Below, in pieces: positions 38,101 to 54,700 of a DNA stretch of 64,000 bases. The notes below the pieces were generated by a model. The model was given only the letters and a program-made list of their open reading frames with translations. It searched no databases and was not told the DNA's origin. The first letter of the stretch is position 1. Each line of letters starts with the position of its first letter. Origin of the DNA: a virus (taxonomy: Duplodnaviria; Caudoviricetes); IMG/VR virus record IMGVR_UViG_3300020161_002811, positions 18,227 through 82,226 of that record; one strand, written 5' to 3'. The position numbers and the translations under genes were made by a program.

Positions 38101-41100
38101 CTCCACCTAAGAATTGTGCGAACCCGGTTCCATTTCCAGGATAAATATTTCTTTTATATAATTCAAGATCTACTTCTGAAGAAAAATTAGACATTAGTTG
38201 ACCCATACTGGTCATGATTTTTCCATCCCCAAAAAATGTACTAACAGGATTTCTTGTGAATACATTTGTTGATAATTTAAAGGTTGCGGCATTAGCTGCT
38301 CCACCAATATCTCCTTGCCCAGCGTTAGCGTAAGCGTTGGTGACGACGTTTCTCAATCCATCGGCTCTTTGTCTTTCAACTTCGTTGATTGGCTCATATA
38401 GTATTGTGCCAAAATGTCTAATGCCAAATCTATTTTCAGAAAAAACAGTTCCCAGAGTTGCTCTTGCTATCGCTTCGCGAACCCTGGATGCTCCCATACT
38501 TAAGAGTCTAACCATTAAGTCTCTTGGCTCAGAAAGGTACATGCCAGTATCTACTCCGCCATCGATTTTTCCGGAGTCACCCTTTTTATTTGTTGAGTTG
38601 ACTACGGCACCTAGTTCAATTGCGTCAGATTGGGCAGTGATAGTAACTATCTCCCCTTCTTCAACATTTGTTATAACTCCATTGAATAGTGTTTGCAGTG
38701 AGTTTGGATTCGAGCCATATCCGCCTCTTAAGTGAAGTCTAACTCCTGGCTTTAATCTTATGTTGTTAATGTCAACAACGTAATCATTTCTCATTCCGGA
38801 AATAATATTTTTAGCTATATTTAGAGTTCTATCTAAGATTGCGCTAATTCCATCTATAGGCGTTAGGGGATCATTGTTGAAGTCGTCATTACCTGCGTTA
38901 AATATATCTGTAGACGGGCGCGTTGTTAACTTGGAGTACATGTTTGAAACTCTTAATATTAATGTGTCTCCTAATAAATCTTCAGATGATACAACTGAAA
39001 AATCTATAACAGACTGAAGTCCATAGAAATTATCGAACAATTTAACGCCTGCAAACATTCCACCTTCATCTATAAGCCATAGCATGTAAGTAGGGAATGC
39101 TCTAATCATGCGCCCAGATATATCTCTATATTGGACATCATTCAACATCTTTTCCATATGATTATTAAAGGAGCCATCATAAGCTTTTTGGTACGCAGAC
39201 AGCGGTTGAGCTCCACTGATTCCGGTTAAAGATTTAGTGCAGCCTGTATCTGGGGTCTGCATATCTTTTACATAATTGCTTTCGAGCTTTTTTGCGCCAT
39301 CTTCAATTTTAACATTAGCGCCTTCTATTGTAAGGTAAAATCTTCCAGTATCTTTATCAATATAGCCAAAATGCGTTCCAAGAGCGCTGTACATTATTGC
39401 TGGAATTTCACTAGCGGATTGTTCTTCAGGATTAGTTAGTGGAAGTAAATTAATAATTTTATGAAAATCGACTTCATCTGGATCAAAACTAACAAATTCT
39501 TCTTCTGCTAAATGAGAACTAGACAACACTTGTGCAATAATATTTTCTGTTTGCGAACTTGTAATTCCAACATTACCTATAACGAATGGTGCTCCATTAA
39601 ACTCTTCAAAGAGTTGGCTACTCTCAGATGACTGTGAAGCTAAGAATATATAATCAGTTAAAAGTGCAGTCTTTGAATAATTATTAATGGTGTCATGGTC
39701 TGGCTCTAATGAAGCTTGTTGAAACAACGCAATAAAGTTATGAATACTGATTCCAGACTCATTTACATAGTCTATCATTTCATTGATTAAATCCTGATTT
39801 GTTTGTCTTCTAGATTCCATTGCAACAGCGTTTGTGGCGTCCGTGAATGAATATCTTCTCATGAAATCTTTAATCCTATTTTTTACAGATTGAATTTTTC
39901 TTTCAATGGCATCAGCTCCACTAGGACCATCAGTATTTCTTGCCCATTTGTCTGTACTGTCAAAAGTAAAAGCCTTAGTTAGATCTACTTGAGTAGTATT
40001 ATTATTTATAATGTCACGATCAAACATTTCGAAACTTCTAAAATAGAAATCTGGATCTAGGTTGCCAACAATATCTCCATTCTTATCCTTTACGCCTAAT
40101 GGAAGGTCGGGGTAGGCATTGAATGAGCCCCACAATTGCTTCATTCTTAAGAAGGGATTTCTCTTCGTGCCAAAGTGATTAATTAAGTCTTCTTGTTGCT
40201 TTGAAGAAATTTTTTCTCTCTGCTGCTGGAATATGTCAAAGTCAACTAGGCTCAGTTGGACTGAGTAGACATGTGGGTAATTCGGTATTGTGTCCACTTT
40301 ATAATTGAGTGGTAATACATATTTAATACCAGATAACGCAGTTATAATATTTTTAATTCCTAAGAATCCTATAACTCCAGTAGAATGTTCTAATCTAGCT
40401 AGACCATTAACATGGTCAAATACTGATCTAATTTTTAATAATTCTTTTTCACCAAACACAGTCATGGACACATTGATATAACTATCTTTTCCGCCAATGT
40501 ATTGATAGCTAGGCTCGTCTTGCATTTGAATTTGTAGTTTTGCTAAATTATTACCCATCGAAACACTAACGCCGTTAACTATGGCATTTTTTGGATCTAG
40601 ATCTACGCGATTCATTGGAACTTCCCACTCATTAAAGTGGTAGTCTCCATCTTTCAGCCTAGTTGCCTCCATCATATTCTTGACAAAGCCATCCGTAAAG
40701 AATCTTTCATACATATTTACTTGAAATGCTTCAGTTACCTGCTGTTTAACCTTTTCTCTATCTGGCTCTATTCCGGTACTTTTGGTCTGTCTAGCAATTT
40801 CTTCGTCAATCAAGATATCTAATATCTCTCCAGAATTATCGGCTCTTTGATCAAACCTATGCTTGATCTCATTTAAGCTCTTATCGCTTGTTAACACTCC
40901 GTTTAGATAGTAAGACTCTTCAGTACTAGAGTATTGAGAGAAGTATCCGGCTACCAAAACTCTTTCTTCTGACCCCAAATAATCTGTAAGCCACTTTTTT
41001 TTCTCTTCATCTAGTCTAGTTGCATTTTCAGCTACAAAAGATTTTGCTAAATAAAGATAGATTTTTTTCTTAGTGTCAGTAGTGGATATGCCTGCGGTAA

Positions 41101-43432
41101 GTACATCAATTGCTTGCTTTAAAAAGGTTCTCATACCCTTTGGAGTTGACTCCAAGGACATTGACCTAACTCCATCCAGATCCTTTATTAGAGGACTGTT
41201 GACGCTGCGTTCTATTCCGAATGAGTTAAGAAGTTTATCCCAGAGTCCAGACGCTGTATCGTTTAGTATTTTTTCTTGCTCACTTCTAAACGAAGTATTA
41301 TCGGGTAGGAATATTTTTGTTTGAACTTCAGCTGGAGTAAATAGAGTTATATTACTTCCATCTCTCCATTGAGAAATAATATTAGTAGATAAAACGTCAT
41401 TTTCGAAAGAATTCAGATATGTAAGTTTTACATCTTCTGGGAGTACATTTATATCAAAAACTTCAGACTGAGCTTCAAGCCCTGCAGCTGTCAATGCCCC
41501 TTGATCTACTGTAGTATCCGCAGTTTTATTGTCAGAAGTTTTGATTAAGAAACTTTCATTGACATACCTGTGCATTTCTCCGGCTGCTTTACCCATATAC
41601 TGACGATACTTGCCCCAATGTATTGCCTGGTTAAAATCTTTTAGCATTGGCAGGAATGGCTTATGATTGAAGTGAACCATTTCTAAATCGATAACAAGAG
41701 CAAATGGATAATTTGGAGCTGTTGCAATGGACATATTTGAAAGCCCAACAGCGGTAATACCGTGTACGGAATTCAGGTAATCATTTTTAATTGGCAAGAT
41801 TGGAGAGTACTTAAATGCAGCTACAAGACCTCTGAGCGATGATAGAAATTTGTCTATTTTTTCTTCGTCATCTCCGCCATTTTTAAAATCAATCTTAAAG
41901 GTTTCATCTAGGTTTAATGTCGCGGCATCAGAGATTGACAGGCCCCATATCTCTTCATAGTTAGGAAAGAATAATCTCATAGAGATAGTGGTTTCCTTAT
42001 AGCCTGCATTAAATTTAGGTGTGTTTTTTTGCCTGATTGCTCCACCTGTTAGTGATCCTGTTTTGAAATTAGAATTTACGCTAATTGAAACTGGAGGAAC
42101 ATAGAAGTTAGCAGCACCCAGTCTGAGATGAAATATATCTGGTTTTCTGGGTGGAATGTTTTCTCTAAATGGGAAATCTACAAGCGCTTGCTTAATGCGC
42201 TTCGCAGTGCTGTCCACCTTAAAGGCTAGGGTAAATATTGCTTCGCCACCTTTAGTGACTCCAAAAGCTTTTTCCAGTGAATCCATTGCGTCAGCTTCAT
42301 TGTTCAGAGTGTCTTCTGCTCCACCACCCTTACCATTATTTGAGTAATCACCCACCGCAGCTAGTGCATCGAATACGAATGTAACTAAACTTGGAAAATA
42401 AAAGTTTATTATAGAAAATGATATTGGATCTTTTTGAAGATTATAAACTACTTCACTTAATATTGTTAACCATGGAGTATCTATTTCAGGACTAGTATAT
42501 TCATCCATTGACCTTTTAGCTGTTGCAACGCTCTGCAGTCTTTTTTTCGCAAAATTACTAATTTCGTAGGCAAATGAAGCTAGCTGTAAAATTCCGCTTG
42601 ACTCTAACCTGGCGTAGATAGATTTGGAAGTTGCGGTCTCTAATTCTATGGGGCCAGAAGCGCCTAAACCAAAAATTCTACCAGTTGTGTTTATTGTGTT
42701 TTCGTCGGCTTCAAACCCGGAGCCTCTGTTTGTCGAGAAATATTTTTTTATTACTCCATTAATATCATTAGTCTCATTTACTGGATCACTCCCGTACACA
42801 TTATGTAAAAATATTCTAAATTCTGTTAGGTAATCCTTGGTGACTTCATTTTCTGGCTTATTATCTTCTAGCTCTTTATCTTTTTCTGTTGTATTAATTT
42901 TTTCTTCTAGCTCAAGGGCAACTAGATCTTCATCAGTTATTCCGTCTTCGCCTATGTAACTTTTCCAGATATTAAGCCTGTCAATAATAATTGACTTAGC
43001 TGTTTGCATTGTGATTTTTTTTGGAGAATTGTTAGGTAAGTAGGCGTAAAAAAACCAACTTAGTGCTTCTTCTATTTTTGGAACATTTATGGTAGCATAT
43101 CCGTAATTAACTGCCCATGTCTGAAATGTTTCAAGTACAAATAATGAATTTGAATCTTTATCTAAAATTTCGCAGTTTGCCAAACGAAGTATTGACAAAT
43201 AGGCGTACTCGTCGCCTGTGCTTTTAAAGTCATCATCAATTGCATAAATAAGGGCTTTTCCACCTTGATTATTATCATAACCAACTATATCCGGGTAAGA
43301 TCCTGGCAAAATTAAGAACAAGTACATTTCGCTTTCACTGAAAGCAGTAATATCTTCAATTATTGAATTAATACGATTTTCATCTTCAGATAGATACTTT
43401 AAGAGATCTTTTGCTATTGGATTAATTGCCAT
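32177..43432 (-). CDS. giant (3751 aa) baseplate hub-like protein with gp27/late-control-D-like regions, an RlpA-like DPBB insert and a C-terminal SNase-like nuclease domain
   Basis: LKPGVRLHLRGGYGSN...LFNGVITNV...ITAQSD and GELTLVGNPDIRPHDLVYL.D...MYG.FEVEQVVHHF are hub-type motifs. C-terminal FEDGDTF..VRFDGMDTGE..GTRAMA..LNWELVVNNLAKVY is an SNase pattern. Confidence 0.75.
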   Translation of the reverse strand: MAINPIAKDLLKYLSEDENRINSIIEDITAFSESEMYLFLILPGSYPDIVGYDNNQGGKALIYAIDDDFKSTGDEYAYLSILRLANCEILDKDSNSLFVLETFQTWAVNYGYATINVPKIEEALSWFFYAYLPNNSPKKITMQTAKSIIIDRLNIWKSYIGEDGITDEDLVALELEEKINTTEKDKELEDNKPENEVTKDYLTEFRIFLHNVYGSDPVNETNDINGVIKKYFSTNRGSGFEADENTINTTGRIFGLGASGPIELETATSKSIYARLESSGILQLASFAYEISNFAKKRLQSVATAKRSMDEYTSPEIDTPWLTILSEVVYNLQKDPISFSIINFYFPSLVTFVFDALAAVGDYSNNGKGGGAEDTLNNEADAMDSLEKAFGVTKGGEAIFTLAFKVDSTAKRIKQALVDFPFRENIPPRKPDIFHLRLGAANFYVPPVSISVNSNFKTGSLTGGAIRQKNTPKFNAGYKETTISMRLFFPNYEEIWGLSISDAATLNLDETFKIDFKNGGDDEEKIDKFLSSLRGLVAAFKYSPILPIKNDYLNSVHGITAVGLSNMSIATAPNYPFALVIDLEMVHFNHKPFLPMLKDFNQAIHWGKYRQYMGKAAGEMHRYVNESFLIKTSDNKTADTTVDQGALTAAGLEAQSEVFDINVLPEDVKLTYLNSFENDVLSTNIISQWRDGSNITLFTPAEVQTKIFLPDNTSFRSEQEKILNDTASGLWDKLLNSFGIERSVNSPLIKDLDGVRSMSLESTPKGMRTFLKQAIDVLTAGISTTDTKKKIYLYLAKSFVAENATRLDEEKKKWLTDYLGSEERVLVAGYFSQYSSTEESYYLNGVLTSDKSLNEIKHRFDQRADNSGEILDILIDEEIARQTKSTGIEPDREKVKQQVTEAFQVNMYERFFTDGFVKNMMEATRLKDGDYHFNEWEVPMNRVDLDPKNAIVNGVSVSMGNNLAKLQIQMQDEPSYQYIGGKDSYINVSMTVFGEKELLKIRSVFDHVNGLARLEHSTGVIGFLGIKNIITALSGIKYVLPLNYKVDTIPNYPHVYSVQLSLVDFDIFQQQREKISSKQQEDLINHFGTKRNPFLRMKQLWGSFNAYPDLPLGVKDKNGDIVGNLDPDFYFRSFEMFDRDIINNNTTQVDLTKAFTFDSTDKWARNTDGPSGADAIERKIQSVKNRIKDFMRRYSFTDATNAVAMESRRQTNQDLINEMIDYVNESGISIHNFIALFQQASLEPDHDTINNYSKTALLTDYIFLASQSSESSQLFEEFNGAPFVIGNVGITSSQTENIIAQVLSSSHLAEEEFVSFDPDEVDFHKIINLLPLTNPEEQSASEIPAIMYSALGTHFGYIDKDTGRFYLTIEGANVKIEDGAKKLESNYVKDMQTPDTGCTKSLTGISGAQPLSAYQKAYDGSFNNHMEKMLNDVQYRDISGRMIRAFPTYMLWLIDEGGMFAGVKLFDNFYGLQSVIDFSVVSSEDLLGDTLILRVSNMYSKLTTRPSTDIFNAGNDDFNNDPLTPIDGISAILDRTLNIAKNIISGMRNDYVVDINNIRLKPGVRLHLRGGYGSNPNSLQTLFNGVITNVEEGEIVTITAQSDAIELGAVVNSTNKKGDSGKIDGGVDTGMYLSEPRDLMVRLLSMGASRVREAIARATLGTVFSENRFGIRHFGTILYEPINEVERQRADGLRNVVTNAYANAGQGDIGGAANAATFKLSTNVFTRNPVSTFFGDGKIMTSMGQLMSNFSSEVDLELYKRNIYPGNGTGFAQFLGGDLDDGWLTAASLVEGDGKTLAGQAYLENGTDRSWNRLIVEAQNGSVSANNTIDSYVEGNELISAEGRAGAVKNVLLGGLTAGVAAIPGVNVLAGVAGGGALMGLLRGRGGNNVFKTMGIIAPNSDDDLSGFDEVSFRAQTYMRTVWDLFQMCARLLPNYIVAVRPFEDRSTIFYGKPHWLYTSGVVPVTTGFPSVRKANELNLPGYPKDRSPNDDIQTIMNNVNKQSNSLADYEAFKRSEELSDVMAGLAIDQASSTGEYAPTKSLTGKLLNFNSNLAKIRTTKDADGNEIIISKLPISSGKVKMGFHLPVSTNPTTYAPLTPSYDHRQLDNLPVRFKYPFYTISETTVLDKKSYEIRDGGLLSGFTDLLSAKNEIDTNDLDDFDKTLFNQKNVMDRYNEAIKSSEYTEGGATLAVNLIYFLQLESRFLQETEITIRPSSGILELDRPLGFTSLMDSIDSSGVEFLNLDQTTVARMPLPSVSSLQKENYPLVGFEMINSTTAQTEENSDDFSFEYELNQQITYEEWGCPATAAEEQFYIAMKWPYLPTTSDGPIPDSSLSKFKDIYFPNEDLYGTASDYKKRRVLVFSPLTGRAVVCVPAYFMWGEDNDEEVAAVVSPDAAWYLGTFVSHLNQGADLISELSESLPAWANLKSHDSNTLDMTIANSTYAQLEKLSGLSTFPRDVDCLFAFVPDSTPLGVVAAAAAPAKRFYDTTDANAYIIGFGEYAINDNGDSNKFIASKSALIPEDLGDSKGTSAAAGRRNNSLEEYSAENAKITAINYEYGGNILQSGDDPSYFQAILDKDYDALDKGNLYERLDKESYDTGDRDTGGQRVGFAAVYSPMDSTSVEARSFYDENFDPNVSVIAGNGRTLNQASDIWDQFRFGYHTYESVKAIFTKTYGMDADSTDPFPEEFSRILGANNTTSFQNFSESNIKIPGLSATDGTGVDELAILLGSDFFNSETEYGSNYGSTKSTPQDKIEAVEFIRKNYIDYQSKGVQGDAGIIQYFNSVISRSLDGIRSNFFETQVINNALSISIENKDNPETAINLSEAVKTPKQLFLLMVGLFRQKLWSSGYGRAWLVLKPDRKRGAITAGGGGEDGQWSFKPVDKVFEAFINPYSQYAKDNSKFLKLLVSTKGEGSNSSTFIGGITEDVSDFYNANIGPILGAIGDGLSSLLGMFKLSMMQMGYALSEVGNFSKQAHILNKVLNDSIYYSLGRPGTLLRAVDNPFTREYGEPVVEVRQPFQRIHYLSSFSHIISNQIQENLNNVSTVITAVSDGKNPVTVALDKGAPSERQTETTVETGLYYDNMVGSGFLGVLHPFMHPLETFRGYAKTLQGTPDELSARRVALSHLKESIKDIYGGELTLVGNPDIRPHDLVYLSDVYSRMYGIFEVEQVVHHFTSEMGYITSITPNALVTVNDPSRWFMSTWLHSWLSMQNLRNDTRFYMDNIMASNSGINMGGNISVDALADSLSTQMIGGIQYTHGSSALMKDIMANQTALSLPDKARDEITRTGQGKTPGAETVIAVVGASLARAVPIVGQLAWKGWTWLRDNVLDQHGCYVQYLNKNGQPMDAGLSYNQGMVVGRYHTKALLPGILGTKTKVKTPEGNAFIRSDDLLKSLGWQETEIKDLVRYTDYENALTHARVLSLSGLGPEKTSLQTSLFKVIATVTKFEDGDTFDVEDVISGATFTVRFDGMDTGETNTTRVGTLPSQPGGDVNYPFDNTTTLTSTSTPGGRAKIYTQSKLSNKVFVLRLKVSNSSSNDVIFEAQFEPGATENTLANYTKDSFMGDEGTRAMATVWYYQPESVINQAKDFVRSCFATNRGKVIEVGDLSNPVTQKFFTSIYEESPLNVKRSKIIDKINTLGIQYTPPLDLSIQSVADYGLTEEDFTRFYNNLVCFKVLEATYEKVNEWPTIFWDEYYEDGYPATLNWELVVNNLAKVYTKQLQIESQSVISAEESALIPRQVTLNPGT

Positions 43433-43897: not shown

Positions 43898-46800
43898 TTA
43901 ATAAGATCGGGCCATCGATTGATATGGGTCTCTTGCCACATCCGGGATTCTATTATACATAGTACTGTTAATATTCCCATTAGTAAGTCCTGATGCTGCT
44001 GTGCTGAACTTTTGTATTTGATCTCTATCTCCGAACAGGGACACCTTATAGTTCATGCCAGCAGTGTAGCCTTGACCTCTGGCCTGAGGAATCTCTGGTG
44101 ACCTTTTTGGGTAGTCGGATTCATAGGCAGATCCTCCTGGCAATAGCGGTGGACCAGAAATATCTTCTTGGGTATGATCTTTCCTGCTTTGATATAAAAA
44201 GCTTGCTGCTATAGCCAACCCAGTTCCTATTGCTGCATTGCGGACATTGGACTTACCAAACTGTTCTGCCAGATATTGTTTATTAATTCTTTTGTAGGCC
44301 GTTGCTGATGAGGAGGATTCACCACTGCCTGACAAGTCTCTAAGTGTGTCAGCGACTATGCTAGAGGTTTGATCTGTAATATCGTCTGCGTTCCGAAGAA
44401 TATTACTTGAAGCTAAATCTCCATTTAAAAAGGCTGCAGCTTCTTTGTCTGCCTGTGCATTTAATTCGAAAATAGTTTTACTTCTTAGTGCGTTAGCTAT
44501 TTTTTGCTCTTCCATACTAGCTGGCGCCTCAAGGGTTTGACCTTTTATTAATGATGAAATCACAGAAGATTTGTTGTTTGTTCCAAAGAAATCCTCTGCA
44601 AAATTTAGATCTAGTCCATCTTCTACAATGCCAGCCTTTTGAGCGTCGGACATGCCGCCAAAAATGTTATCAATATATTGCCTTAATTCAACATTCCTAG
44701 TTTCTTTTTCATATATAGCTTTATCTTGTGACATTTTCATATATCTTTGAAAAAGATTAGCACTTGTTCCATCTGGTCTCATAGATGAATCTGGAAGTTT
44801 TGTAAAAAAACCTATATCTATATTCTTTTTTATTCCACTATACTGAAGGGCGTTAGTCATCTCGTACCCGGATATGCCCATTGACCTTTGTACGTCCTGC
44901 ATCCCCTCTAAGAGCTTATCTCCTAGTTGCATTTTGCTTATTTCCATTTCTATCTTTGCCATTTCCCCTCCCCCGTCGCTATCTATTGTTCGACCTAAGT
45001 CTTGTATTGACTTTATCAAGGATGCATTTTCATCTAATATTTTTTCTGAAGCAACCTGAGAGCGTTGTGTAATCCTAGAGGCTAATTCTTGCTCTCTAGA
45101 TATTTGTGAATTTGCACTTAATCTTGTCTTAGCCTTGAGGTAATAGTCAGAAGTATTGGCTATGTCTACCATCTCTGAGATAGATCCCTTACCTATAAAT
45201 CCCCTAGCTCTTAAAACTTGTTCTACTTTTTCATATTGACTAGATTGTGCAGCTGCGCTGATGTCGGCTATGTCTGCATCGGGATCTGCCAATGCCATTC
45301 CTTCTGATAAGCTTTTAGCAAAAGTGACAAGATCAGTTTGACTCATCTTTCCACTAGTTAAAAGAGCTTCATCTAATACGAGTTTCTTCTCTGTTATTGG
45401 GTCAGCAAGGTCATATTTTTGCTTTGCGTAGCCAAACATTTTTCCATACTGTTCAATTGTAGTATTGCCTAGCTTATCTAGGTCGGCATCTTCTCCATAT
45501 ATCGCCTTGAGCATCAGGTCAGCCTGCAGGGGGTCCATGCTTCCAGCCTGTGCCATTTGTTGCATGAGTTGCCTACTAGAAGAAATACTTGCTGTAACAA
45601 TATCCTTCTTAGCTGTAACAATCTTCATCTTGCCGGAAGTAAGAGTTTGAGTCATGTCAATGACCTTTTCAGCGGTAGGGAAACCTAGTAGTAATCCCTT
45701 ATCCATAAATTCTTGTTCTATGCCGGGAATTGCGCCTAGTATTCCCTCCATTTGCCTAAGACCATGACCAACTACGGTTGACCTATTGGAATATTGTCCA
45801 AGTATATTTGTATTTGACATTGCCGAATCAATGCTCTCACTGACAAAAGTTTTACCATATAAAACGGCTTTTTGCTCTGGGCTAAGTCCCAAGTTTTGAA
45901 TTTCAGCGTAAAATTTTTCAGACAATTTACTTATTGCTGTTCTGCTCTTGATCAAATCATTTCCATTTAAATTCGAAAGATTTTTTCTTTGCGTTTCTAA
46001 TTCTTTTACAATTTTACCTAATCCTGTTTTTTTCCTCACATCTACTGTGTCATCTAAATTTGAGAATATACCAGCTTCAAGGGGCATTTCTGCAATTTCT
46101 GTTTTTAGCATTTTAAATCCGAGCGACATTAACTCTGGATCTTCATTTCCTAGCGCAATTAATTTTGTTGCAGAAAAGTTTTCTATTGTGTTTTTGCCAG
46201 ATTTTAATACTCCTAGTTTTTCAAAAAAGTTTCTATTGTAATCTCGCATTCCAGTTCCAGTAATTCTTTTACCTGCATCATCAAATTCAGCGCCGCTCAC
46301 CCTGTCGTTAACATCGATTGTCAGTTGCTCTAACATGCCCATTGTATTCGGATTGAAAAGATCGTCTGACATTCCAGTTCCATCAAGAGCGCTGGATAAA
46401 ACTTTATATTTAGAATCTTCTTCAGCCATCTTATTTAAGGTATCCATAAAGAATCTATTTTTACCAAATACTTCACGATAGCTTTCTATATCATCAAATC
46501 TAGTAAGACCAATAATTTCACCCATGGCAGTAGGTTGGCGAACCATAGCAGCGGCTAGTCTGCGCTTACCTTGTGACATATATGTGCCAAGTATGGGTAA
46601 TCCCTTGTCGTCTAAGTCGAAACCACCAAGTGCGTTATAAAACTTCCTAATGTCCCCTTCGTGAAAAAGAATATTATGATTAGAAACTCTGATATGTGCA
46701 ATTTCTGCGGAAATTTCATCACCAGCTTCACCTATTTTTACTGAAATTGGGTTTCCTGATAATATTTTTCTTCCAGTAGTTCCAGTCATTGCGTTTGCTT

Positions 46801-48748
46801 CAGAGTTAAGAGCAAATCTATAAACGTCACCAACGACTGGAAGCTTCTGTCCATTCTTGGTTTTATATAATTCGGATTGATACCATTTAGATAATAGATT
46901 CATATATTCTGGAGAATCATTAATGCTTATGCCACTATTGTGCAAGTCCAAAATTCTTTGCTGGAAGTCTCTACTCATCATTTTTGAGAATTGCTGGTGT
47001 TCCATAAAGTCATCTATATCTAGTTCTGCACCTTTTCTAATTGCCCTTAGGACCTCACTATCTTCTGTTAAGCGCCCGCTAGATAATATTGCTTGGAATT
47101 CATTTAGCACATTTTTTGAATGAGCTTTGGCTATTGCTATATCTTCATTGCTTCCAAAGACTGCGTTTTGAAAAGCTGCTAACATTGGATCGGTATACAC
47201 TCTAGAGGTAGCTTCAGCTAGTCCGCTGAAATTTACGATTGGAGTTCCAGCTGCTATCCCTGTCTCTTTTTTTAATCCACTAATAGCAGTGATGATTCCA
47301 TATTTGTCAAATCTATCTGAAAACTTTTTAAATTGAGCCGCTGTTTTATAGGAATAATCTATTCCGCCAATTCGCACAGAACCTCTAACTGAACCTTGAG
47401 ATAACCCTATAACTTCTCCGTCTTTACCTATACTTATCTCAGCTATCTGCCTTCTTAATTCAACCTTACGAATCATTGATTGTTCGTCTCTGTTTTGGGT
47501 AAGATTTAATAATTCCTCTTGTAGGGTTTCCCTTAGTCTTTGAGCGTACTTTACGTTTACTAGTGACGATCCATCTCGACCTTTTTCTAATTCACCAAAA
47601 AGACCCTTAAGAACCGTTCTAGTTTCATTATCATAACTCCCTGGGATATTTAGTAAATTTTTTACTTGCTCAATACCATATCTTCCCTCTGCGGCATCTA
47701 TGTCTCCATTTCTTACGACTTCACTTATCAGATCCCTTAGTGAACTTTTTATTTGGGCAGACTTTGCACCAAGATTTTTTGCTGCAATTATTTCATCTAA
47801 CACTTCATCGACATATTTACTTGCTTCTTGCTCTGCCTTTCCGCCACCTTCATACTGAAAGGATTGTTTCATAAATTCTACTACATCTTGTTGCTTAACC
47901 GATTTTCCGATTGAAGTATCTTCCCCGAAAGCTAGTGCCATTGTTTCGAACACATTATCAATATTGAGTGTTGCTTCAGATAACTGTTTCATTATCTGTT
48001 CAGAGCCAGCACCGGTAGGATTAAGGGGGATCTTAGGTCCCAGGAAGGATTGCATAAGATCCCCGGATATGGATATTTCTCTTGGAGAAAGAATACCTTT
48101 TAATCTTTTTGGAAGCTTTGCAAATAATTTAGACAACCCTGCATTACCGCCTTTTATTGCTTCATCTAATTCCCCTGGAGTGAATAAAGGTTTTCCACTT
48201 TTTGACATTGTCTCAAGTGTTTCCTGCATTGATAAGACTCGATCACCTTGCCTAAGATTAAGGGCCATTGCCCCATCATCGGTTGGGAAAACTAATCCAG
48301 TTCCCTGTTCTTTCATTTTTTCCAAGAAAGCTGGAATACTTTGAGATCCGATTTTTGCTTTATGGATTACAATTTGAGCACCATATTGCTGATCTCCAGT
48401 AAATCCTAATTCTTTATTGATATCTTTTAATACTTGGGCATAGTCTCTATATTCTGCGGGGCCAAGGGATCCTGGCGCAATATCCGCAAGTTCGGTCGCT
48501 CCAAAACCAGAGATATACTGCACTGCTTTTTCTAGTGAGTCAGTTACCATTTGTGCTGATTCTCCCCGATTCAATCTTAGAGAGTCAACATAAGTTGATT
48601 TAAATTGTAGTTTCCCGTCAACCTCTATGGGTTCTATTAAGCCCTTTTGGCCAAGGTACGTTTTACTTAAGGCTTGTTTAGCTAAAAGTATTTGTCTATC
48701 CATCCGCATAGGCGATAAGTAGGATGTAATTAGGTCACTTAAGGGCAT
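43898..48748 (-). CDS. putative single-subunit two-barrel (double-psi beta-barrel) RNA polymerase, likely virion-associated
   Basis: Ordered motifs: RDGSSLVN (Asp 47573-47575), VRIGGIDYSYKT (Lys 47345-47347), IITAISGLKK (Lys 47270-47272), VYRFALN (Arg 46817-46819) and NILFHE...FYNALGGFDLDDK (46604-46627). The start overlaps the tape-measure stop (TAATG). Confidence 0.65.
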   Translation of the reverse strand: MPLSDLITSYLSPMRMDRQILLAKQALSKTYLGQKGLIEPIEVDGKLQFKSTYVDSLRLNRGESAQMVTDSLEKAVQYISGFGATELADIAPGSLGPAEYRDYAQVLKDINKELGFTGDQQYGAQIVIHKAKIGSQSIPAFLEKMKEQGTGLVFPTDDGAMALNLRQGDRVLSMQETLETMSKSGKPLFTPGELDEAIKGGNAGLSKLFAKLPKRLKGILSPREISISGDLMQSFLGPKIPLNPTGAGSEQIMKQLSEATLNIDNVFETMALAFGEDTSIGKSVKQQDVVEFMKQSFQYEGGGKAEQEASKYVDEVLDEIIAAKNLGAKSAQIKSSLRDLISEVVRNGDIDAAEGRYGIEQVKNLLNIPGSYDNETRTVLKGLFGELEKGRDGSSLVNVKYAQRLRETLQEELLNLTQNRDEQSMIRKVELRRQIAEISIGKDGEVIGLSQGSVRGSVRIGGIDYSYKTAAQFKKFSDRFDKYGIITAISGLKKETGIAAGTPIVNFSGLAEATSRVYTDPMLAAFQNAVFGSNEDIAIAKAHSKNVLNEFQAILSSGRLTEDSEVLRAIRKGAELDIDDFMEHQQFSKMMSRDFQQRILDLHNSGISINDSPEYMNLLSKWYQSELYKTKNGQKLPVVGDVYRFALNSEANAMTGTTGRKILSGNPISVKIGEAGDEISAEIAHIRVSNHNILFHEGDIRKFYNALGGFDLDDKGLPILGTYMSQGKRRLAAAMVRQPTAMGEIIGLTRFDDIESYREVFGKNRFFMDTLNKMAEEDSKYKVLSSALDGTGMSDDLFNPNTMGMLEQLTIDVNDRVSGAEFDDAGKRITGTGMRDYNRNFFEKLGVLKSGKNTIENFSATKLIALGNEDPELMSLGFKMLKTEIAEMPLEAGIFSNLDDTVDVRKKTGLGKIVKELETQRKNLSNLNGNDLIKSRTAISKLSEKFYAEIQNLGLSPEQKAVLYGKTFVSESIDSAMSNTNILGQYSNRSTVVGHGLRQMEGILGAIPGIEQEFMDKGLLLGFPTAEKVIDMTQTLTSGKMKIVTAKKDIVTASISSSRQLMQQMAQAGSMDPLQADLMLKAIYGEDADLDKLGNTTIEQYGKMFGYAKQKYDLADPITEKKLVLDEALLTSGKMSQTDLVTFAKSLSEGMALADPDADIADISAAAQSSQYEKVEQVLRARGFIGKGSISEMVDIANTSDYYLKAKTRLSANSQISREQELASRITQRSQVASEKILDENASLIKSIQDLGRTIDSDGGGEMAKIEMEISKMQLGDKLLEGMQDVQRSMGISGYEMTNALQYSGIKKNIDIGFFTKLPDSSMRPDGTSANLFQRYMKMSQDKAIYEKETRNVELRQYIDNIFGGMSDAQKAGIVEDGLDLNFAEDFFGTNNKSSVISSLIKGQTLEAPASMEEQKIANALRSKTIFELNAQADKEAAAFLNGDLASSNILRNADDITDQTSSIVADTLRDLSGSGESSSSATAYKRINKQYLAEQFGKSNVRNAAIGTGLAIAASFLYQSRKDHTQEDISGPPLLPGGSAYESDYPKRSPEIPQARGQGYTAGMNYKVSLFGDRDQIQKFSTAASGLTNGNINSTMYNRIPDVARDPYQSMARSY

Positions 48749-51700
48749 TATCTAACACCTGCATTAATATCAATTTGCTCCGATCCAAAAGGATTCATAA
48801 CTGGAATGACAGATCCTGATACACCCATACCACTCATTAAGGATCTTAATCTTGAAGCGGTGTCTGTTTGAGATCCGGTTCCACCGCCAAATCTAGGATA
48901 ACTAGGATTGGATAAACTGGCTTCTTGTATCTGCTGTGGATAGTAACCCATTTGCGACATTTCCAGCCCCATATCTTGGCCAATCTTTATTTTAACTTGA
49001 TCCATACTGGTATTGGGGTGCCAACCTTCCCAGTTTTCATTAGGTAATTCGTTCTTAGAAAAATAATCAGTTAACTCTGGTCTCTTTTCTACTTCCATGC
49101 CCCACGCAGCTTCGTATATTCTTCTTTCAAGTCTTCCAGCTGTTGATAATATTCTTTTTCTTTCATCTACGGGAGCATTAATCATGGCTTTAAAATGTTC
49201 CCGTTTTCTTTTTGGTATTGCCAAAGAAAGTGACTCTATATCAGTTCCGTATCTTCCTGAATTTATTTCTTCTATTGGGGCGCCATACATTGTTCTTTTG
49301 GCAGCTGACTCATACTGGAAGGCTGCGCCTTTATCACCAGCCATACTAGCCATTTTGGCTAATCTAGTATTTTTAGTGTATGTCAGTATGTCCGCATATT
49401 CTTCTAGTGCAAGTTCTTTTTTCCTAGCCCTTGGCATGAACTGCTCTCCAGTAATGGCTTCATTGGCTGAATGGAGTGAGGAAACGCTAAAGCCCGTTAC
49501 TGCTCCAAGTGTAGACATTATAAATTTACCTTTGCCAGATTCTCCAAAGAATGTACCAGCTACCGCTAATGCAGCGGCTGCTGTTATGGGATCTCTATTT
49601 CCAGCCTTATTGATCATCGGAGCTATAAAGCTCTCAAAAGGCCTTTGCCATTCAGGGAAGGTTGCGCCATATACGTTGTTTCTTTCCCAATCTTCTGTCG
49701 CTGTTTGTTTATTTACAAACTTCTTATTAATAAATGTATCTTTATGCGCTAGCATTTCGCCTACTCTACTTACTGCGTGTACAGTCGGATGCATGCCCAT
49801 TTCCTCGGGGGTGCTATCTTTGTACTTATATTCAGTAAAGTTTTTCTTCTGCTGTATTGATATTGCGCGTTCTCTAAGTTCCTGGACCCTTAACTTATCG
49901 GTAGGATTATCTACCATGGAATCTATAGTTTTGTCTAGTGACCTAAACTGCTTTGAATACGGAGCTACGTCTCCAAGTATTTTATATTGATCCATTACCC
50001 CGTATCTACCTGTGGCATCTGGGCTTAGTCTATTTAATCTCTCATAAGCTACTCCAGGCAATCTAAGCTCTCCTTCCGGAACTTTTGTAAACGGGTCACC
50101 TGTAGTAAAATCCGTAAAGTATTCTGATCCTGGGAGGAATGGATACTGCTTGCCCATAGTATTCTTGATCGGATTTATGTAGTCAATGCCCGATCTTTCT
50201 TTGGGTATAAATCTTCTTGTTATTTCTGAAAACTCTATAGAACCTATTTGCTTTCCGCCCAACATAGGAATGTCTCCTAGTCCTCCTAGGTTCATGTCCC
50301 AAAATTGCCTTCCAGTTCCATATCCCTTAGAAGCCGATTGCAAAACTGATCTTTGTGGTGCCAGGTCTCTTTGACCTAATCCAAAACTTTCTCGTACGTT
50401 ACTCGCGGCAAAGCCGTAAATACCTAGCATTTCCTGAGTCCTATATCCAAGTTCCTGGGCTTGGATTTGTGGATTGCCTGCATTTATTGGACTGCCAGAT
50501 GGAATAATGCGCTGTGGCATAACGCCAGTTACCTTAGGTGCCCCATAGGCCATCTGCATGTATTGATTATTAACGCCGGATATTGTATTTCTAGTTTCAT
50601 TTCTGGCAGTATTGAGCGAACCTGCTCTTCCTGCTAGCATTGCGTTAGAAGATGCCTGTGTGCCGTTTGGAGGGCCTCCAGGTCCTCCCATGGCCATTCC
50701 ACCTGCAACGCCTCCCATGCCCCCAAAAACGCCACCTCTGCCATTGATGTATGGATCTGCGTTATAAGCTCCAGATTGACCAGCCGGCACGTAGTTGGCT
50801 AGTCCCGCAGCCACTTCTTGTTGATGCATCATGGTCTGAGGTTTAAGTACTTTTCCAACAGTGGCGTTGAGTGCTGGAACAAGTGGGCCGAATGGCCCGC
50901 TGAAATACTCACCAGATACAGGGTATGGCCTATCCTCAAAGTGCTTGCGCTCAAAACGATAAGGATCAAACGGTCTAAGTGGAGATATGTCAGTGTAAAA
51001 TAGCGCTCTTTCTATTGGGCTCCCCATGCTGTCCGAGGTGAACATTGCTCCAGTTTCTAGTTTGCGATATATACTTGGGCGGTAGTACATAATTTTTCCG
51101 CCCATGAATGGAGTATTGCCCAAAGGCCAGAATCGACCTTGTCTAATTGCTACTTCGCCTTCAAATAATTGTTCTTTCTTTTCTTCAAAATTCATTCCGC
51201 CAGGAGTAATGCCAGAACCAAGAGCCTGTAAATTTCCTACTGCCTTAGCAGCTCCGCCGATAAAGAATGGTGAGTAAACCCTTTCTCCTCTATCATCTTT
51301 TTCATTTACCATTCCACCAATAGTTCTGTCGGCGGTCATGATGCCCAGGCCGGCACCGTATATTGGCAGGATTCTTTTTCCTACCATTCCACTTGTAAAT
51401 AGACTTAAGGGTGAGCCGTATTGAGAAACGTCTAGCTGTAGGCCAATGGTTCCAAAATATTTATTTAGTCTTTCAACGCTGTGTGACACTGCAGTAGATG
51501 CACTAGAGTAGCTCTCTGTACTATTGTAAGTATTAATTCCTAGTGCACTTTTTATTGCGCCATATGGATTCCTAGCAAAGACGGTGCCAAAAGTTGGAAC
51601 TAGAAGAACGTCTGCGCCCTGTCCTCTTGTAGATCCGAGAACGTCTGTTGCTGCTTCCGATATCCGATAGGGAGCAGTGCTAAGTCTAGGGTATAATGCT

Positions 51701-54700
51701 TTTTTAATTATGCCAGACCTTCCTACCTCTCCTATTCTTTGGCTAGTTCCAGTAACAAAAGGATCAACTAGTCCTCCTGCGTCTTTTAGGGCCTCTATGG
51801 AATTTTTAAATGCGCCTCTCTGTACTGCTAGTTCACTTAGTCCAGCCCTATTTGCTTTCATGGAACTTAAATTAAATAGTGTTGAAAGTCCGGCTGCTTG
51901 CGCCTCTGCTAACTGACCAGCTGGCAAATCCTTTGCCATTGCAGTTATAATTTCATTCATCTGAATAAAGGTATTAGAAAAATTTTGCCCTGCTGCACCG
52001 GCAGAGCCTGATGCTAGTAATTCATTTCTTTGAACTAAATATTTGAATAATTCATCTTGAAGCTCATCCCCTCTTGTTAAGATTGTGGGGCTTCTTTTTC
52101 TGATATGGGACCCAGACATTAAATCTGCGTCCTGCATTATATCTCTTAGTCTTCTACTCGTTTCATACAGGGCGTCTGGTTCATAACCTAAGCCCCTTAT
52201 TCTGGAGGCGTCATAATTCAATGATGCAAGTACGTCATCGGTCATTTGTTTTGTATCTTGAACATTGGTAAGTGAAGAGACTCTTCTACCATTAAATGTT
52301 CCTATGCCATTATCCTCAAGAGCTTTCATTACTCTCTTGGGCATAGCAAAACCACGAGTTTGTTGTCTAAAGTTTTCAAATGCCCTTAGCATTTCGCCTT
52401 CGGTGATCATTTCACCTGCAGTGCCGGGTGACCTTGCTGTTACTGCGCCAGTATCATCTGCTATGTTTACTCTGAATTGTTTACCATTAGAGTCAACCGT
52501 TTCATTCTTGAGAAGTCGTCCAAAGAAGGCTGGATTTTCTGGATCAGTCTTTCTCTTGGCAAACCTTGACAATAAGCGCCCAATTGAATTTGGCTGCTCA
52601 TAATCAACATCAAATTTTTGCCTAAGGGCAAGTTCTCTTTCCGGACTAACTCCAAGTCTTTTTAATAAATTTGATCTATTTTTTCCATTAGCAAATTCAA
52701 CTTCATTCAGCGACTTTGCCTTGCTTTCCGAAGCTGCGTTTCTTGCAGCCCTTGAGAGCATTTCATTACTTTTTCTAGAAAGAGGTCTGTAAAATCCCTC
52801 TAACTCTTTTGACTGATATTGGCCAGTTATTGATTCCTCAGTAAAGGACATTACCTTATGCTTAGTGCGGCCTCCACTATAGGACAAAAAGAAATCAGCG
52901 CCTCTATCTGCTTCAGGGAGAAACGGTTGGGATACTTTTCCTTGCACTATCTGGAATGGAGCACGGCCTGACATTTCGTCAAATGAGCCTTTTCCAAACA
53001 TCCGCGCTGGATTAAAGTTAAGTATAGGAATTTTTAAATCATTACTTAAGAAGTTGCCAACGTTTCTTACCGATTGCTTAACGCCAGAAAAATCTAATAC
53101 ACTTCCAGAACGAGTTGTATAAACATCTCTCATTACTGAAACGCTAGAAGATGTTGTCGTTGGATCGGCTAATGCCATTCTCTTGGATATTTCACCTAGC
53201 ATTGTTTGACTATCGTCGCTAAGTCCTGCGAATAGCCCTTGACTTACGCCTTCATCTAAAGTCATTGCCTTTAATCCGAGAATATTAAATCCTCTACTAA
53301 ATATGCCAGTACTTATCTGCTTTTCTCTTACTAGAAAACTTCTTAGGCTATCTGGATTATTAGTGTTTAATCCTCTTTTTCCTAGGCTTTGACTCAGTAC
53401 AGCATTAGAGACTTCTCGACCATTTGCGTCTTTTAGATTTATTCCTAACCTTTGCGCTGATCTTTTAATTAAGAAATCTTTTTGGGAAACTGATAAATTA
53501 TTTAAGTCTGCAAAATCTTCAAAATCTGCCTTTTTAGTTTTTAGCACCTTGCCTGCCACACGGGGCATGGCATTATCTAGTATGGAATTCCATCCCTTTT
53601 CTGCTTTTACTTTTATTGCAGCTTGAAATTCTTTTCCTTCAAATATTCTATTAGTATTTTCTATAGATGTTTTCAGGGCATCTGAGCTGAGAAACCCTCC
53701 CTCAATCGGATCGTCTACCGTTGTTGAAAATCTTTTTAATATTTCCTCAAAAGCTTCATCGCCCTGTTTGATGATTTTAGTTTTGCCAATAGTTACTTTT
53801 CTACTAGTTTCTTTGACTGAAGTATTAACACTTACATCATTTATGAATTTTCCTAAAGCCCCGGAAAATCCTTCACGACCAGAATTTGGTGATATATCTA
53901 ATATTTGTTTTTGAAGAAGCTTCTTAAACTCTCGCTCTTCTACTTGTCTATAAAACTCTGAGCCACTAAAGGTCTTACTACCTACACCTCCTCCTCCGCT
54001 ATCACTAAATTTTTGAGCTAACTTGGATACTTTGTTGGAGAAATTAGCTCGCACATTTGTGACTACACTAGTTAATTCATCTGCATTCATACCAGATTTA
54101 TGTAGGGCTGCGTCAAAACTTATTGCTTTATTTATTACATCGTAGCCAACTCCAGTTTTCTTAAATGCACTAATACCTTGATTGACGCCTGAGCCAATTC
54201 CTCTTAATCCGGGCAATAAATCTATATAGCCAAAATTGCCATCTGCTCCATCTCCAAAAGCTAATTTTCGACCAAATGTTGCAGCTCTTTTTAGAGTGCT
54301 TTGACCTGTAGAATTTGCCCAAGATTCTCTAGCTCCAGTGTTTCTAACGCTGTGCATAATGGCATTGATGTTAGGTCGCTGACTTACATAGTTTTCTGTT
54401 GCTGCCTTAACTGCAGCTGAACCCTGAGCTGAAACTTTTAATGCCTGATTTGTTATCTTACCTAGGTCGTGACCTACTTCTCCAAGAATATCATCTAAGT
54501 CAGTGAATCGCTGAGCTGCTTTTGTCTTAAAAGAATTAACCCCAGATGACCGCGCAACGTCGCCCATGGATTGTCTAAAATTATGGAGAGATGATCTTGC
54601 GTTGCCTGCTGCTGCCCCAGCTACCTCGAATGGCAGAATCATCGTAGCTAAAGCTATTGATGATTCTTTAACAAAGTCCGTAACAACATCTACTGGGTTG

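What the first reader, a model, noticed from the sequence alone, without database searches (positions are those of the whole stretch)
46604..46627. Non-canonical catalytic loop GGFDLDDK (D-x-D-D instead of D-x-D-x-D)
Seen: GGT GGT TTC GAC TTA GAC GAC AAG. There are three aspartates, but the third is one residue closer than in DFDGD, DLDGD or DFDID. An RQPT, which normally precedes the loop in beta', occurs about 20 residues after it (46529-46540). Inference: either a new active-site geometry for two-barrel polymerases, an auto-inhibited or activation-dependent loop, or a catalytically dead polymerase fold repurposed structurally.
Basis: partly seen in the sequence, partly recalled or inferred. 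Interest (0 to 1): 0.7.

Follow-up and report, generated by a model that had tools for sequence, protein, structure and literature searches.

The report
Tail-gene polymerase-like core, DxDD loop
A 1616-residue protein encoded among the tail genes of an uncultured large phage probably contains a very divergent copy of the two-barrel core of cellular-type RNA polymerases. Its metal-binding loop reads Asp-x-Asp-Asp, not the textbook Asp-x-Asp-x-Asp, and never varies among relatives, so it is probably a working enzyme, though no activity has been shown.

Summary
GGFDLDDK is residues 708-715 of a 1616-aa ORF (43898-48748, minus strand), and RQPT follows 23 residues later (46529-46540).

D-x-D-D strings are common by chance. 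This one matters because it does not vary: D711, D713, D714, R737, P739 and E744 are invariant in 92 aligned relatives down to about 18% identity. All 191 family proteins that cover the region carry D-x-D-D, then R-x-P, then E. Their codons differ synonymously, so a sequencing error and a drifting dead site are both excluded.

AlphaFold models of the core (pLDDT 86 and 73) give extended structural matches only to single-chain two-barrel RNA polymerases: QDE-1, RDR2 and P74-26 gp62. The scores are modest (Z 4.5-7.3, 179-269 residues aligned). In each match the alignment ends about as far past the DLDD loop as past the target's Asp triad.

No sequence or profile method links the protein to any known family. 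A compact 860-aa paralogue with the same signature lies among replication genes of a related 194-kb phage, which recalls the virion and non-virion polymerase pair of Thermus phage P23-45.

Best reading (about 0.55): an active, probably tail-delivered RNA polymerase with a rewired active site. Activity is untested. This scan has already flagged the same family on other DNA, in at least 17 genomes.

The parts
43898..48748 (-). 1616-aa ORF (P0001), the tail-module giant protein that carries the motif
   Evidence: ORF list and translation. 57 homologues of similar length. 214 cluster representatives at E<=0.001.
46259..47581 (-). Predicted two-barrel core, residues about 390-830
   Evidence: AlphaFold models: pLDDT 72.8 for residues 370-1000 and 86.0 with pTM 0.83 for residues 440-830. 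The only long structural matches are QDE-1, RDR2 and P74-26 gp62.
47570..47575 (-). D392-G393, nearly invariant; candidate equivalent of the fourth acidic residue in the first barrel (QDE-1 D709)
   Evidence: At least 90% conserved. Model 1 residue 13 aligns with QDE-1 residue 701, which places D392 near residue 711. This is inferred from range arithmetic only.
47195..47395 (-). First, beta-like barrel (residues about 452-518) with R455 (47384-47386), K468 (47345-47347), K493 (47270-47272) and VYTD 517-520
   Evidence: K468, K493, V517 and D520 are invariant in A2. R455, K468 and K493 are at least 90% conserved in 92 sequences. The strands are predicted in both models. The spacing matches QDE-1 R738, K743 and K767 if one 8-residue insertion is assumed; this is an inference.
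46574..46867 (-). Second, beta-prime-like double-psi barrel (residues about 628-725), including R644 (46817-46819) and R687 (46688-46690)
   Evidence: Model 2 residues 202-283 align with the double-psi barrels of the p97, NSF and PEX1 N-domains (Z 2.4-2.7, 47-58 residues, rmsd 1.9-3.0 A). The same residues lie within the QDE-1 and RDR2 alignments.
46604..46627 (-). GGFDLDDK (residues 708-715), the proposed metal-binding loop with invariant D711, D713 and D714
   Evidence: It lies between helix 697-706 and strand 715-725 of the model. This is the same strand-helix-loop-strand setting as the Asp triad of known enzymes.
46517..46540 (-). R737-Q738-P739-T740 and E744, an invariant R-x-P...E element 22-23 residues after the Asp loop
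   Evidence: R737, P739 and E744 are invariant. The spacing is 22-23 residues in 156 of 185 proteins. The same element, RSPNG.GE, occurs in the compact paralogue family.
44120..44155 (-). GPPLLPGGSAYE (residues 1532-1543), an invariant motif near the C-terminus, preceded by a weakly hydrophobic stretch (44189-44251)
   Evidence: Invariant columns G1532 to Y1542. The best 19-residue Kyte-Doolittle mean is only 0.95, so this is not a convincing membrane helix. Its function was not tested.
48748..55353 (-). Upstream 2201-aa ORF, the positional candidate for the tape measure
   Evidence: A conserved neighbour in all complete related loci. No Pfam or PHROG match. Only a weak Atlas lead to tape measure proteins, score 0.76.
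32177..43432 (-). Downstream 3751-aa hub-like giant protein, with the 149-aa ORF 43442-43891 in between
   Evidence: PHROG endolysin and tail-protein matches. Conserved synteny.

Best explanation
Residues about 390-830 of this 1616-residue tail-module protein form a highly divergent two-barrel nucleotide polymerase core. It belongs to the single-chain clade that holds QDE-1 and RDR enzymes, crAss-like phage gp66, and P23-45 gp96 and gp64. A beta-like barrel carries invariant basic residues (R455, K468, K493) that would hold the product 3' end and the NTP phosphates. A beta-prime-like double-psi barrel follows and carries the loop GGFDLDDK. In that loop D711, D713 and D714 would bind the catalytic Mg ions. 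The third carboxylate sits one residue closer than in D-x-D-x-D, so the loop must adopt a different turn. An invariant R-Q-P...E element lies 23 residues downstream, and it probably replaces the upstream R-x-P 'Pro-gate' loop that senses the incoming NTP in known enzymes. The protein is encoded between the tube/chaperone-like genes plus a 2201-aa tape-measure candidate on one side and the hub on the other. It is therefore most likely carried in the tail and delivered with the DNA to transcribe the first phage genes. A compact paralogue of about 850 aa in the replication region would then take over, as gp96 and gp64 do in Thermus phage P23-45. Shown: the motif, its invariance, the synteny, the paralogue and the fold resemblance. 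Inferred: metal binding, polymerase activity, RNA as the product, presence in the virion, and the role of R-Q-P.
For: The loop and its partner residues are invariant across 92 sequences down to about 18% identity, and 191 of 191 proteins that cover the region carry the signature, with synonymous codon turnover. With model 1, the 11 best Foldseek hits out of 350,542 PDB chains are all single-chain two-barrel RNA polymerases: QDE-1, RDR2, P32 gp64 and P74 gp62, at E 0.012-0.2. crAss gp66 is at rank 18. With VIA-align the only alignments longer than about 110 residues are to the same enzymes. These are QDE-1 at Z 7.3 with 269 residues, RDR2 at Z 6.4 with 204 residues and 16% identity, QDE-1 at Z 5.8 with 226 residues, and P74 gp62 at Z 4.5 with 179 residues. 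The alignments end 8-11 residues past D714 in the model. In the targets they end 8-14 residues past the Asp triad: QDE-1 D1011 (PMC9508822), RDR2 D834 (PMC8713982), and gp62 DYDGD, if that entry is numbered from its second Met. Model residues 202-283 also match the double-psi barrels of p97, NSF and PEX1. The spacing of R455, K468 and K493 mirrors QDE-1 R738, K743 and K767, which bind the product and the NTP phosphates. The gene order [2200 aa][1600 aa][150 aa][3200-3750 aa hub] after the sheath and tube genes is conserved in 16 diverse loci. A paralogue with GG.D.DD and RSPNG.GE lies next to a helicase and a dCMP deaminase in a related 194-kb phage. It aligns collinearly with this family over 242 columns at hhalign E 0.003.
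Against: All fold scores are below the level at which the tools call a match clear: Foldseek E is at least 0.012 and Z is below 8. With the better model alone, Foldseek did not rank two-barrel polymerases significantly; QDE-1 came at rank 11 with E 0.94. There is no Pfam, PHROG or PDB sequence or profile match. hhalign against the P74 gp62 family gave probability 0.2%. Two features treated as universal for the superfamily are not met: the D-x-D-x-D triad and the upstream R-x-P loop. In RDR2 an acidic residue at the Gly position (G833E) abolishes function (PMC8713982), so an Asp at that position needs a different loop geometry, which I could not inspect because no coordinates were available. 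Residue equivalences rest on the ends of aligned ranges, not on residue-level superposition. Presence in the virion is inferred from gene position only. The compact paralogue was not found on this window's own contig, which is only 39% complete.
Confidence: 0.55

Rival explanations
1. The protein is an enzyme of an unrelated, still unknown kind. The resemblance to two-barrel polymerases comes from weak structural scores on predicted models, and D-x-D-D with R-x-P...E is the active site of some other reaction, for example a hydrolase or transferase that acts during tail assembly or cell entry.
For: No fold match reaches the tools' own significance levels. All sequence and profile searches are blank. 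The two signature motifs of the superfamily are not met as defined.
Against: Chance would not put five different two-barrel polymerases at the top of 350,542 chains. It would also not make them the only long alignments in an independent all-against-all search, nor end each alignment just past the respective Asp loops. The invariant Arg and Lys residues in the first barrel fit nucleic-acid and NTP binding.
Confidence: 0.2
2. The fold really is two-barrel or double-psi-barrel, but the protein does not synthesise nucleic acid. Instead the barrel serves another catalytic role known for this fold, for example a peptidoglycan-cleaving barrel like MltA, RlpA or the expansins, as many tail-lumen proteins carry.
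For: The gene lies in the tail module next to a hub that has an endolysin-like domain. Double-psi barrels with catalytic Asp residues exist in lytic transglycosylases (established knowledge). The second barrel by itself matches non-polymerase barrels of p97 and NSF.
Against: No Pfam match to DPBB_1, 3D or any lytic domain at E<=0.1. The long matches span both barrels and the connector, as in polymerases. The paralogue sits among replication genes, not lysis or tail genes. The invariant basic residues of the first barrel would have no role in such an enzyme.
Confidence: 0.1
3. It is a two-barrel polymerase, but not a DNA-dependent RNA polymerase. It could be an RNA-dependent RNA polymerase like its closest structural matches QDE-1 and RDR2, or a primase or DNA polymerase like archaeal PolD.
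For: The best structural matches are eukaryotic RdRPs. QDE-1 itself uses both DNA and RNA templates (PMC9508822). PolD shows that the fold can make DNA (PMC10770324, section 11).
Against: The contig already encodes a DnaE-type replicative polymerase. Every phage member of this clade studied so far (crAss gp66, P23-45 gp96 and gp64) transcribes DNA (PMC10770324). A dsDNA phage has no evident need for an RdRP.
Confidence: 0.08
4. It is a catalytically dead polymerase fold kept as a structural or scaffolding part of the tail.
For: Both canonical motifs are altered. The rest of the protein, about 800 C-terminal residues, is helical and resembles a tape measure only by weak leads.
Against: Dead sites drift. 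Here three Asp, two Lys, two Arg, one Pro and one Glu are fixed across sequences that share only about 18-25% identity, with synonymous codon turnover. The same residues are fixed in a non-structural paralogue.
Confidence: 0.05

Closest known systems
Thermus phage P23-45 gp96 (virion RNA polymerase fused to the tape measure) with its non-virion paralogue gp64 / P74-26 gp62 (PDB 8F72, 8F5M; PMC10770324)
   Same: A single-chain two-barrel polymerase encoded in the tail module and thought to travel through the tail, paired with a compact paralogue encoded elsewhere in the genome. P74 gp62 is one of the few long structural matches (Z 4.5, 179 residues).
   Different: gp96 and gp64 keep D-F/Y-D-G-D and an upstream R-x-P (PMC10770324). 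gp96 is fused to the tape measure of a siphovirus. Here the gene is separate, in a contractile-tailed phage of about 200 kb, has D-x-D-D, and has R-x-P downstream. There is no profile similarity.
Eukaryotic RNAi polymerases QDE-1 (PDB 2J7N, 7Y7P) and RDR2 (7EU1, 7ROZ), Pfam RdRP PF05183
   Same: These are the best structural matches (Z 5.2-7.3, 204-269 residues aligned, 13-16% identity) and cover both barrels and the connector. The basic residues of the first barrel have similar spacing. The Asp loop is at the corresponding place.
   Different: They carry D-[LY]-D-G-D, and G833E inactivates RDR2 (PMC8713982). Their Pro-gate R-x-P lies 43-45 residues before the triad (PMC9508822). They are cellular, use RNA templates, and have no Pfam match to this protein.
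Virion RNA polymerase gp66 of crAss-like phage phi14:2 (PDB 6VR4)
   Same: A giant virion-packaged single-chain two-barrel RNA polymerase of a phage. It is a weak Foldseek match (rank 18, E 0.35).
   Different: It has DFDID, that is D-x-D-x-D. It is a podovirus protein packaged in the head, not encoded between tail tube and hub. It is much larger (2180 aa) and the match is weak.
The compact paralogue family of about 850 aa in related ~200-kb phages (A5; example L085:10033-12612 minus strand), uncharacterised
   Same: It shares the signature GG.D.DD, then about 24 residues, then R-S-P-N-G.G-E, and the K...K.E...V.tD motifs of the first barrel. It aligns collinearly over 242 columns at E 0.003. 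It occurs on the same contigs as the giant family.
   Different: It is half the length, lacks the C-terminal helical part and its motif, is encoded among replication genes, and is far more conserved (at least 51% identity among 30 members). It is as unstudied as the giant family.

Membership tests
Two-barrel (double-psi beta-barrel) RNA polymerases, single-chain QDE-1-like clade | Two double-psi barrels in one chain, beta-like first and beta-prime-like second, joined by a connector | tested here: inconclusive
   The only long structural matches are QDE-1, RDR2 and P74 gp62 (Z 4.5-7.3, 179-269 residues), and the 11 best Foldseek hits are all of this clade. All scores lie below the tools' clear-match levels, and Foldseek on the better model was not significant.
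Two-barrel (double-psi beta-barrel) RNA polymerases, single-chain QDE-1-like clade | D-x-D-x-D metal-binding triad in the beta-prime-like barrel | tested here: not met
   D-x-D-D is invariant in 92 aligned sequences and in 191 of 191 proteins that cover the region. The fifth position is mostly Lys.
Two-barrel (double-psi beta-barrel) RNA polymerases, single-chain QDE-1-like clade | R-x-P Pro-gate loop about 40-45 residues before the Asp triad | tested here: not met
   No conserved R-x-P lies between R644 and L707. An invariant R-Q-P lies 22-23 residues after the triad. Whether it takes the same place in space could not be tested.
Two-barrel (double-psi beta-barrel) RNA polymerases, single-chain QDE-1-like clade | Conserved basic residues in the beta-like barrel that hold the product and NTP phosphates (Rpb2 K979 and K987; QDE-1 R738, K743, K767) | tested here: met
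   R455, K468 and K493 are invariant or at least 90% conserved. The K-K spacing is 25 residues against 24 in QDE-1. Positional equivalence is inferred from the alignment ranges.
Two-barrel (double-psi beta-barrel) RNA polymerases, single-chain QDE-1-like clade | Bridge helix and trigger loop after the catalytic barrel | tested here: inconclusive
   Helices are predicted at residues 754-818, but the structural alignments on the better model stop at about residue 725.
Two-barrel (double-psi beta-barrel) RNA polymerases, single-chain QDE-1-like clade | Match to a curated sequence model (Pfam RdRP, RNA_pol_Rpb1 or Rpb2 domains) or to a solved member by sequence | tested here: not met
   No Pfam family at E<=0.1 to 1. 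No PDB sequence or profile hit to any polymerase. hhalign against the gp62 family gave probability 0.2%.
Two-barrel (double-psi beta-barrel) RNA polymerases, single-chain QDE-1-like clade | Template-dependent NTP polymerisation | not testable with these tools
   This needs biochemistry.
Tail-delivered virion RNA polymerase with a non-virion paralogue (P23-45 gp96/gp64 type) | Encoded in the tail module beside or within the tape measure | tested here: met
   The gene order is sheath, tube-like genes, small ORFs, 2201 aa, this gene, 149 aa, hub. This order is conserved in 16 diverse loci. The tape-measure identity of the 2201-aa gene rests on position and a weak lead only.
Tail-delivered virion RNA polymerase with a non-virion paralogue (P23-45 gp96/gp64 type) | A second, compact paralogue encoded outside the structural module | tested here: met
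   It was found in the related 194-kb record G001 next to a helicase and a dCMP deaminase, and its family members share contigs with the giant family. It was not found on this window's own contig, which is 39% complete.
Tail-delivered virion RNA polymerase with a non-virion paralogue (P23-45 gp96/gp64 type) | Protein present in virions and ejected into the host | not testable with these tools
   No cultured relative was found. This needs virion proteomics.
Double-psi-barrel lytic transglycosylases (MltA 3D domain, RlpA/DPBB_1) | Match to the Pfam DPBB_1 or 3D models | tested here: not met
   Neither model appears among the Pfam results at E<=0.1 to 1.

The most novel reading that the evidence does not exclude
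A widespread, undescribed lineage of two-barrel RNA polymerases exists in uncultured contractile-tailed phages of about 180-215 kb. In it the supposedly universal D-x-D-x-D triad is replaced by D-x-D-D and the NTP-sensing R-x-P loop has moved to the other side of the triad. The lineage comes as a tail-delivered giant form plus a compact non-virion form, which makes these phages independent of host transcription from the first minute of infection.
Probability: 0.45. Interest if true: 0.8.

Novelty: new variant of a known kind. Interest (0 to 1): 0.62.

Why it matters
The Asp-x-Asp-x-Asp loop is treated as the one sequence feature shared by all two-barrel polymerases, and it is the string people search with to find new ones (PMC10770324). 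A family that works with Asp-x-Asp-Asp and a relocated Arg-x-Pro loop would show that the active site tolerates more rewiring than thought. It would also explain why motif searches and standard annotation miss these enzymes, and add a second example of a polymerase delivered through a phage tail, this time a contractile one. The family is large: 214 cluster representatives at 50% identity, with no cultured member found. Many environmental large phages may therefore carry their own transcription start-up system.

Tried and rejected
- tblastn of the protein against 50,697 phage records found no match.
- Pfam and PHROGs on the whole protein, the core and the paralogue found nothing relevant.
- phmmer and profile searches against PDB sequences returned only low-complexity helical noise such as apolipoprotein, and nothing for the paralogue family.
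- hhalign of the family against a 5-member P74 gp62 / P23-45 gp64 alignment gave probability 0.2%.
- Foldseek against PDB with the better model (residues 440-830) gave no significant hit; QDE-1 was rank 11 at E 0.94.
- In the VIA-align wide search, most top rows were 40-90-residue helical hairpins of no meaning.
- The ESM Atlas held no structure and gave only weak tape-measure look-alikes at 0.76-0.81 for this protein and its 2201-aa neighbour.
- BLASTP of this protein against the 2201-aa neighbour found no similarity, so the two do not share a C-terminal loading signal.
- A profile search of four related near-complete phage records found no second copy at E<=1. The paralogue was found only by scanning for the motif.
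- A scan of 185,579 prokaryote genomes found no relative, so there is no prophage or host clue.
- Sequencing error as an explanation is rejected by the invariance and codon data.
- I could not obtain model coordinates. The geometry of the three carboxylates and the spatial position of R-Q-P relative to the loop therefore remain untested.
Full report
**Observation.** The reverse complement of window 46604-46627 encodes GGFDLDDK, residues 708-715 of a 1616-aa ORF at 43898-48748 on the minus strand. RQPT is residues 737-740 at 46529-46540, 23 residues after the last Asp. The string alone is not remarkable, because nine other D-x-D-D or D-x-D-x-D strings occur in long ORFs of the same contig.

**Setting.** All long ORFs of the window lie on the minus strand. 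PHROG matches identify a tail sheath (59141-60379) and a baseplate wedge (27313-28482). They also give a 3751-aa hub-like protein with endolysin and tail-protein matches (32177-43432). The gene lies between a 2201-aa ORF, which is the tape-measure candidate by position, and a 149-aa ORF followed by the hub. The held genome is one 82-kb virus contig estimated at 39% complete. Relatives come from IMG/VR contigs of up to 216 kb. In 16 diverse related loci the order [about 2200 aa][about 1600 aa][about 150 aa][hub of 3180 aa or more] is kept. No cultured phage and no prokaryote genome holds a relative.

**Conservation.**
- The word-indexed search gave 57 homologues.
- The exhaustive profile search gave 214 cluster representatives at E<=0.001.
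- In 53 full-length sequences the invariant internal columns are D711, L712, D713, D714, R737, P739, E744 and G1085. The rest of the invariant columns form a motif near the C-terminus, GPPLLPGGSAYE.
- In 92 sequences down to about 18% identity, D711, D713, D714, R737, P739 and E744 stay invariant. R455, K468, K493, R644, G708 and F710 are at least 90% conserved.
- 191 of 196 family proteins carry D-x-D-D, then 15-36 residues, then R-x-P, then E. The other five are fragments without the region. The middle residue varies (L, F, M, N, H, Q, A), but the spacing of the three Asp never does.
- Across 47 distinct nucleotide contexts the codons of G, F, L, D, K, R, Q and P vary synonymously.

The site is under purifying selection. 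It is neither a sequencing error nor a decaying site.

**Fold.** Two AlphaFold models were built on trimmed family alignments.
- Model 1 covers residues 370-1000 with pLDDT 72.8. Model 2 covers residues 440-830 with 92 sequences, pLDDT 86.0 and pTM 0.83.
- With model 1, the 11 best Foldseek hits in the PDB are all single-chain two-barrel RNA polymerases: QDE-1, RDR2, P32 gp64 and P74 gp62, at E 0.012-0.2. crAss gp66 is at rank 18.
- With VIA-align the only long alignments are to the same enzymes. They are QDE-1 at Z 7.3 with 269 residues and RDR2 at Z 6.4 with 204 residues and 16% identity. QDE-1 also scores Z 5.8 with 226 residues, and P74 gp62 scores Z 4.5 with 179 residues. Every other row is a helical hairpin of 40-110 residues.
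- Model 2 residues 202-283 also align with the double-psi barrels of the p97, NSF and PEX1 N-domains at Z 2.4-2.7. This supports a double-psi barrel whose last strand follows the DLDD loop.

These scores are modest. None reaches the tools' thresholds for a clear match, and Foldseek on model 2 alone was not significant. The case rests on how consistent and exclusive the matches are, not on any single score.

**Position of the loop.**
- In model 2 the Asp residues are at 272-275, and the alignments end at 283-286.
- In the targets the alignments end at QDE-1 1019-1025, RDR2 848 and gp62 340. Their triads are D1007-D1011 (PMC9508822), 830-DLDGD-834 (PMC8713982), and DYDGD at 353-357 of my translation. 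That translation carries 26 extra N-terminal residues, so the gp62 triad is 327-331 if the entry is numbered from the second Met.
- The alignments therefore run 8-11 residues past the loop in the model and 8-14 past the triad in the targets.
- Locally the loop sits between a helix and a strand, as the triad does in known enzymes.
- By the same range arithmetic, R455 falls on QDE-1 R738. With one 8-residue insertion, K468 and K493 fall on K743 and K767, the residues that bind the product and the NTP phosphates. D392 falls near D709.

These equivalences are inferences, because I could not obtain coordinates or residue-level alignments.

**What is non-canonical.**
- In known two-barrel enzymes, metal A is held by all three Asp and metal B by the first two (PMC9508822). 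Here the third Asp takes the place of the Gly, and a nearly invariant Lys takes the place of the third Asp.
- In RDR2 the change G833E at that Gly abolishes function (PMC8713982), so the loop here must turn differently.
- The R-x-P Pro-gate loop, which contacts the incoming NTP from the minor groove, lies 43-45 residues before the triad in QDE-1 (PMC9508822) and about 38 before it in gp62. In this family that stretch is variable, and an invariant R-Q-P...E lies 22-23 residues after the triad.
- It is plausible that this element does the Pro-gate's job, but that was not tested.

**Paralogue.** Earlier notes of this scan mentioned a compact second copy, so I scanned the related 194-kb record G001 for the motif. 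I found an 860-aa ORF with GGMDEDD followed 24 residues later by RSPNGYGE.
- Its family has 216 hits and is at least 51% identical among the 30 members aligned. GG.D.DD, RSPNG.GE and the K...K.E...V.tD motifs are invariant in it.
- hhalign aligns the two families collinearly over 242 columns through all the motifs, at E 0.003 and probability 10%.
- The compact gene lies on the strand opposite the structural genes, among small ORFs, a helicase and a dCMP deaminase.
- Members occur on the same contigs as the giant family.
- Three uncharacterised BFVD proteins of 851-1141 aa from uncultured phages match model 2 at E 1e-5 to 1e-4. They may belong to this compact family, but I did not check this.
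- The pairing recalls P23-45 gp96 (tape-measure-fused virion polymerase) and gp64 (non-virion polymerase) (PMC10770324).

**Reading.** The most likely explanation is an active, probably tail-delivered, RNA polymerase with a rewired active site (about 0.55). Four rivals remain:
- an unrelated enzyme whose fold resemblance is spurious (0.2);
- a barrel enzyme of another kind, such as a muralytic one (0.1);
- a polymerase with another template or product (0.08);
- a dead scaffold (0.05), which the invariance of nine charged or special residues makes unlikely.

**Membership and novelty.** Strict membership of the known two-barrel polymerase families fails on two defining sequence features, the D-x-D-x-D triad and the upstream R-x-P, and on all profile tests. 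I therefore file it as a new variant that probably works like them. Four full-text searches found no paper describing a D-x-D-D two-barrel polymerase or this family. The same family has already been flagged by this scan on other DNA, with 24 notes in at least 17 genomes. Those notes agree with this reading but are not independent evidence.

Noticed in passing
window about 38090-38125 (minus strand), in the 3751-aa hub ORF 32177-43432; also L001-L066: The downstream giant hub protein carries a conserved FLGGDLDDGW string in many related loci. It looks like the GGFDLDD loop of the polymerase-like gene. This is probably coincidence, but the string is conserved across distant loci.
   Followed up: no
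L028/L046, L039, L049/L056 (related loci): In some relatives the gene is cut into two or more overlapping frames: 761+807 aa, 660+955 aa, and many pieces in L049. The neighbours are also fragmented in L049. The cause could be frameshifts from assembly error, programmed recoding or decay; this was not resolved.
   Followed up: partly
window 57594-58379 and 58452-59114 (minus strand): Two adjacent paralogous ORFs of 261 and 220 aa next to the sheath gene both match only the N-terminal third of a PHROG labelled 'major head protein' (phrog_9206). By position they look more like tube proteins, so the label is doubtful.
   Followed up: no
G000:C1:7379-10720 (minus strand), outside the window: A 1114-aa ORF with MPDIDLDFDD, the PDxD motif typical of DnaE-type Pol III alpha. 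The phage therefore seems to encode its own replicative polymerase.
   Followed up: no
window 44189-44251 (minus strand): The G/A-rich stretch before GPPLLPGGSAYE reaches a 19-residue Kyte-Doolittle mean of only 0.95. It is not a convincing membrane helix. The C-terminal motif itself is as conserved as the catalytic loop, and its role is unknown.
   Followed up: partly
window 46616-46618 (codon of D711) and related loci: The first Asp of the loop is encoded by GAC in all 47 distinct nucleotide contexts. The second and third Asp use both GAC and GAT.
   Followed up: no
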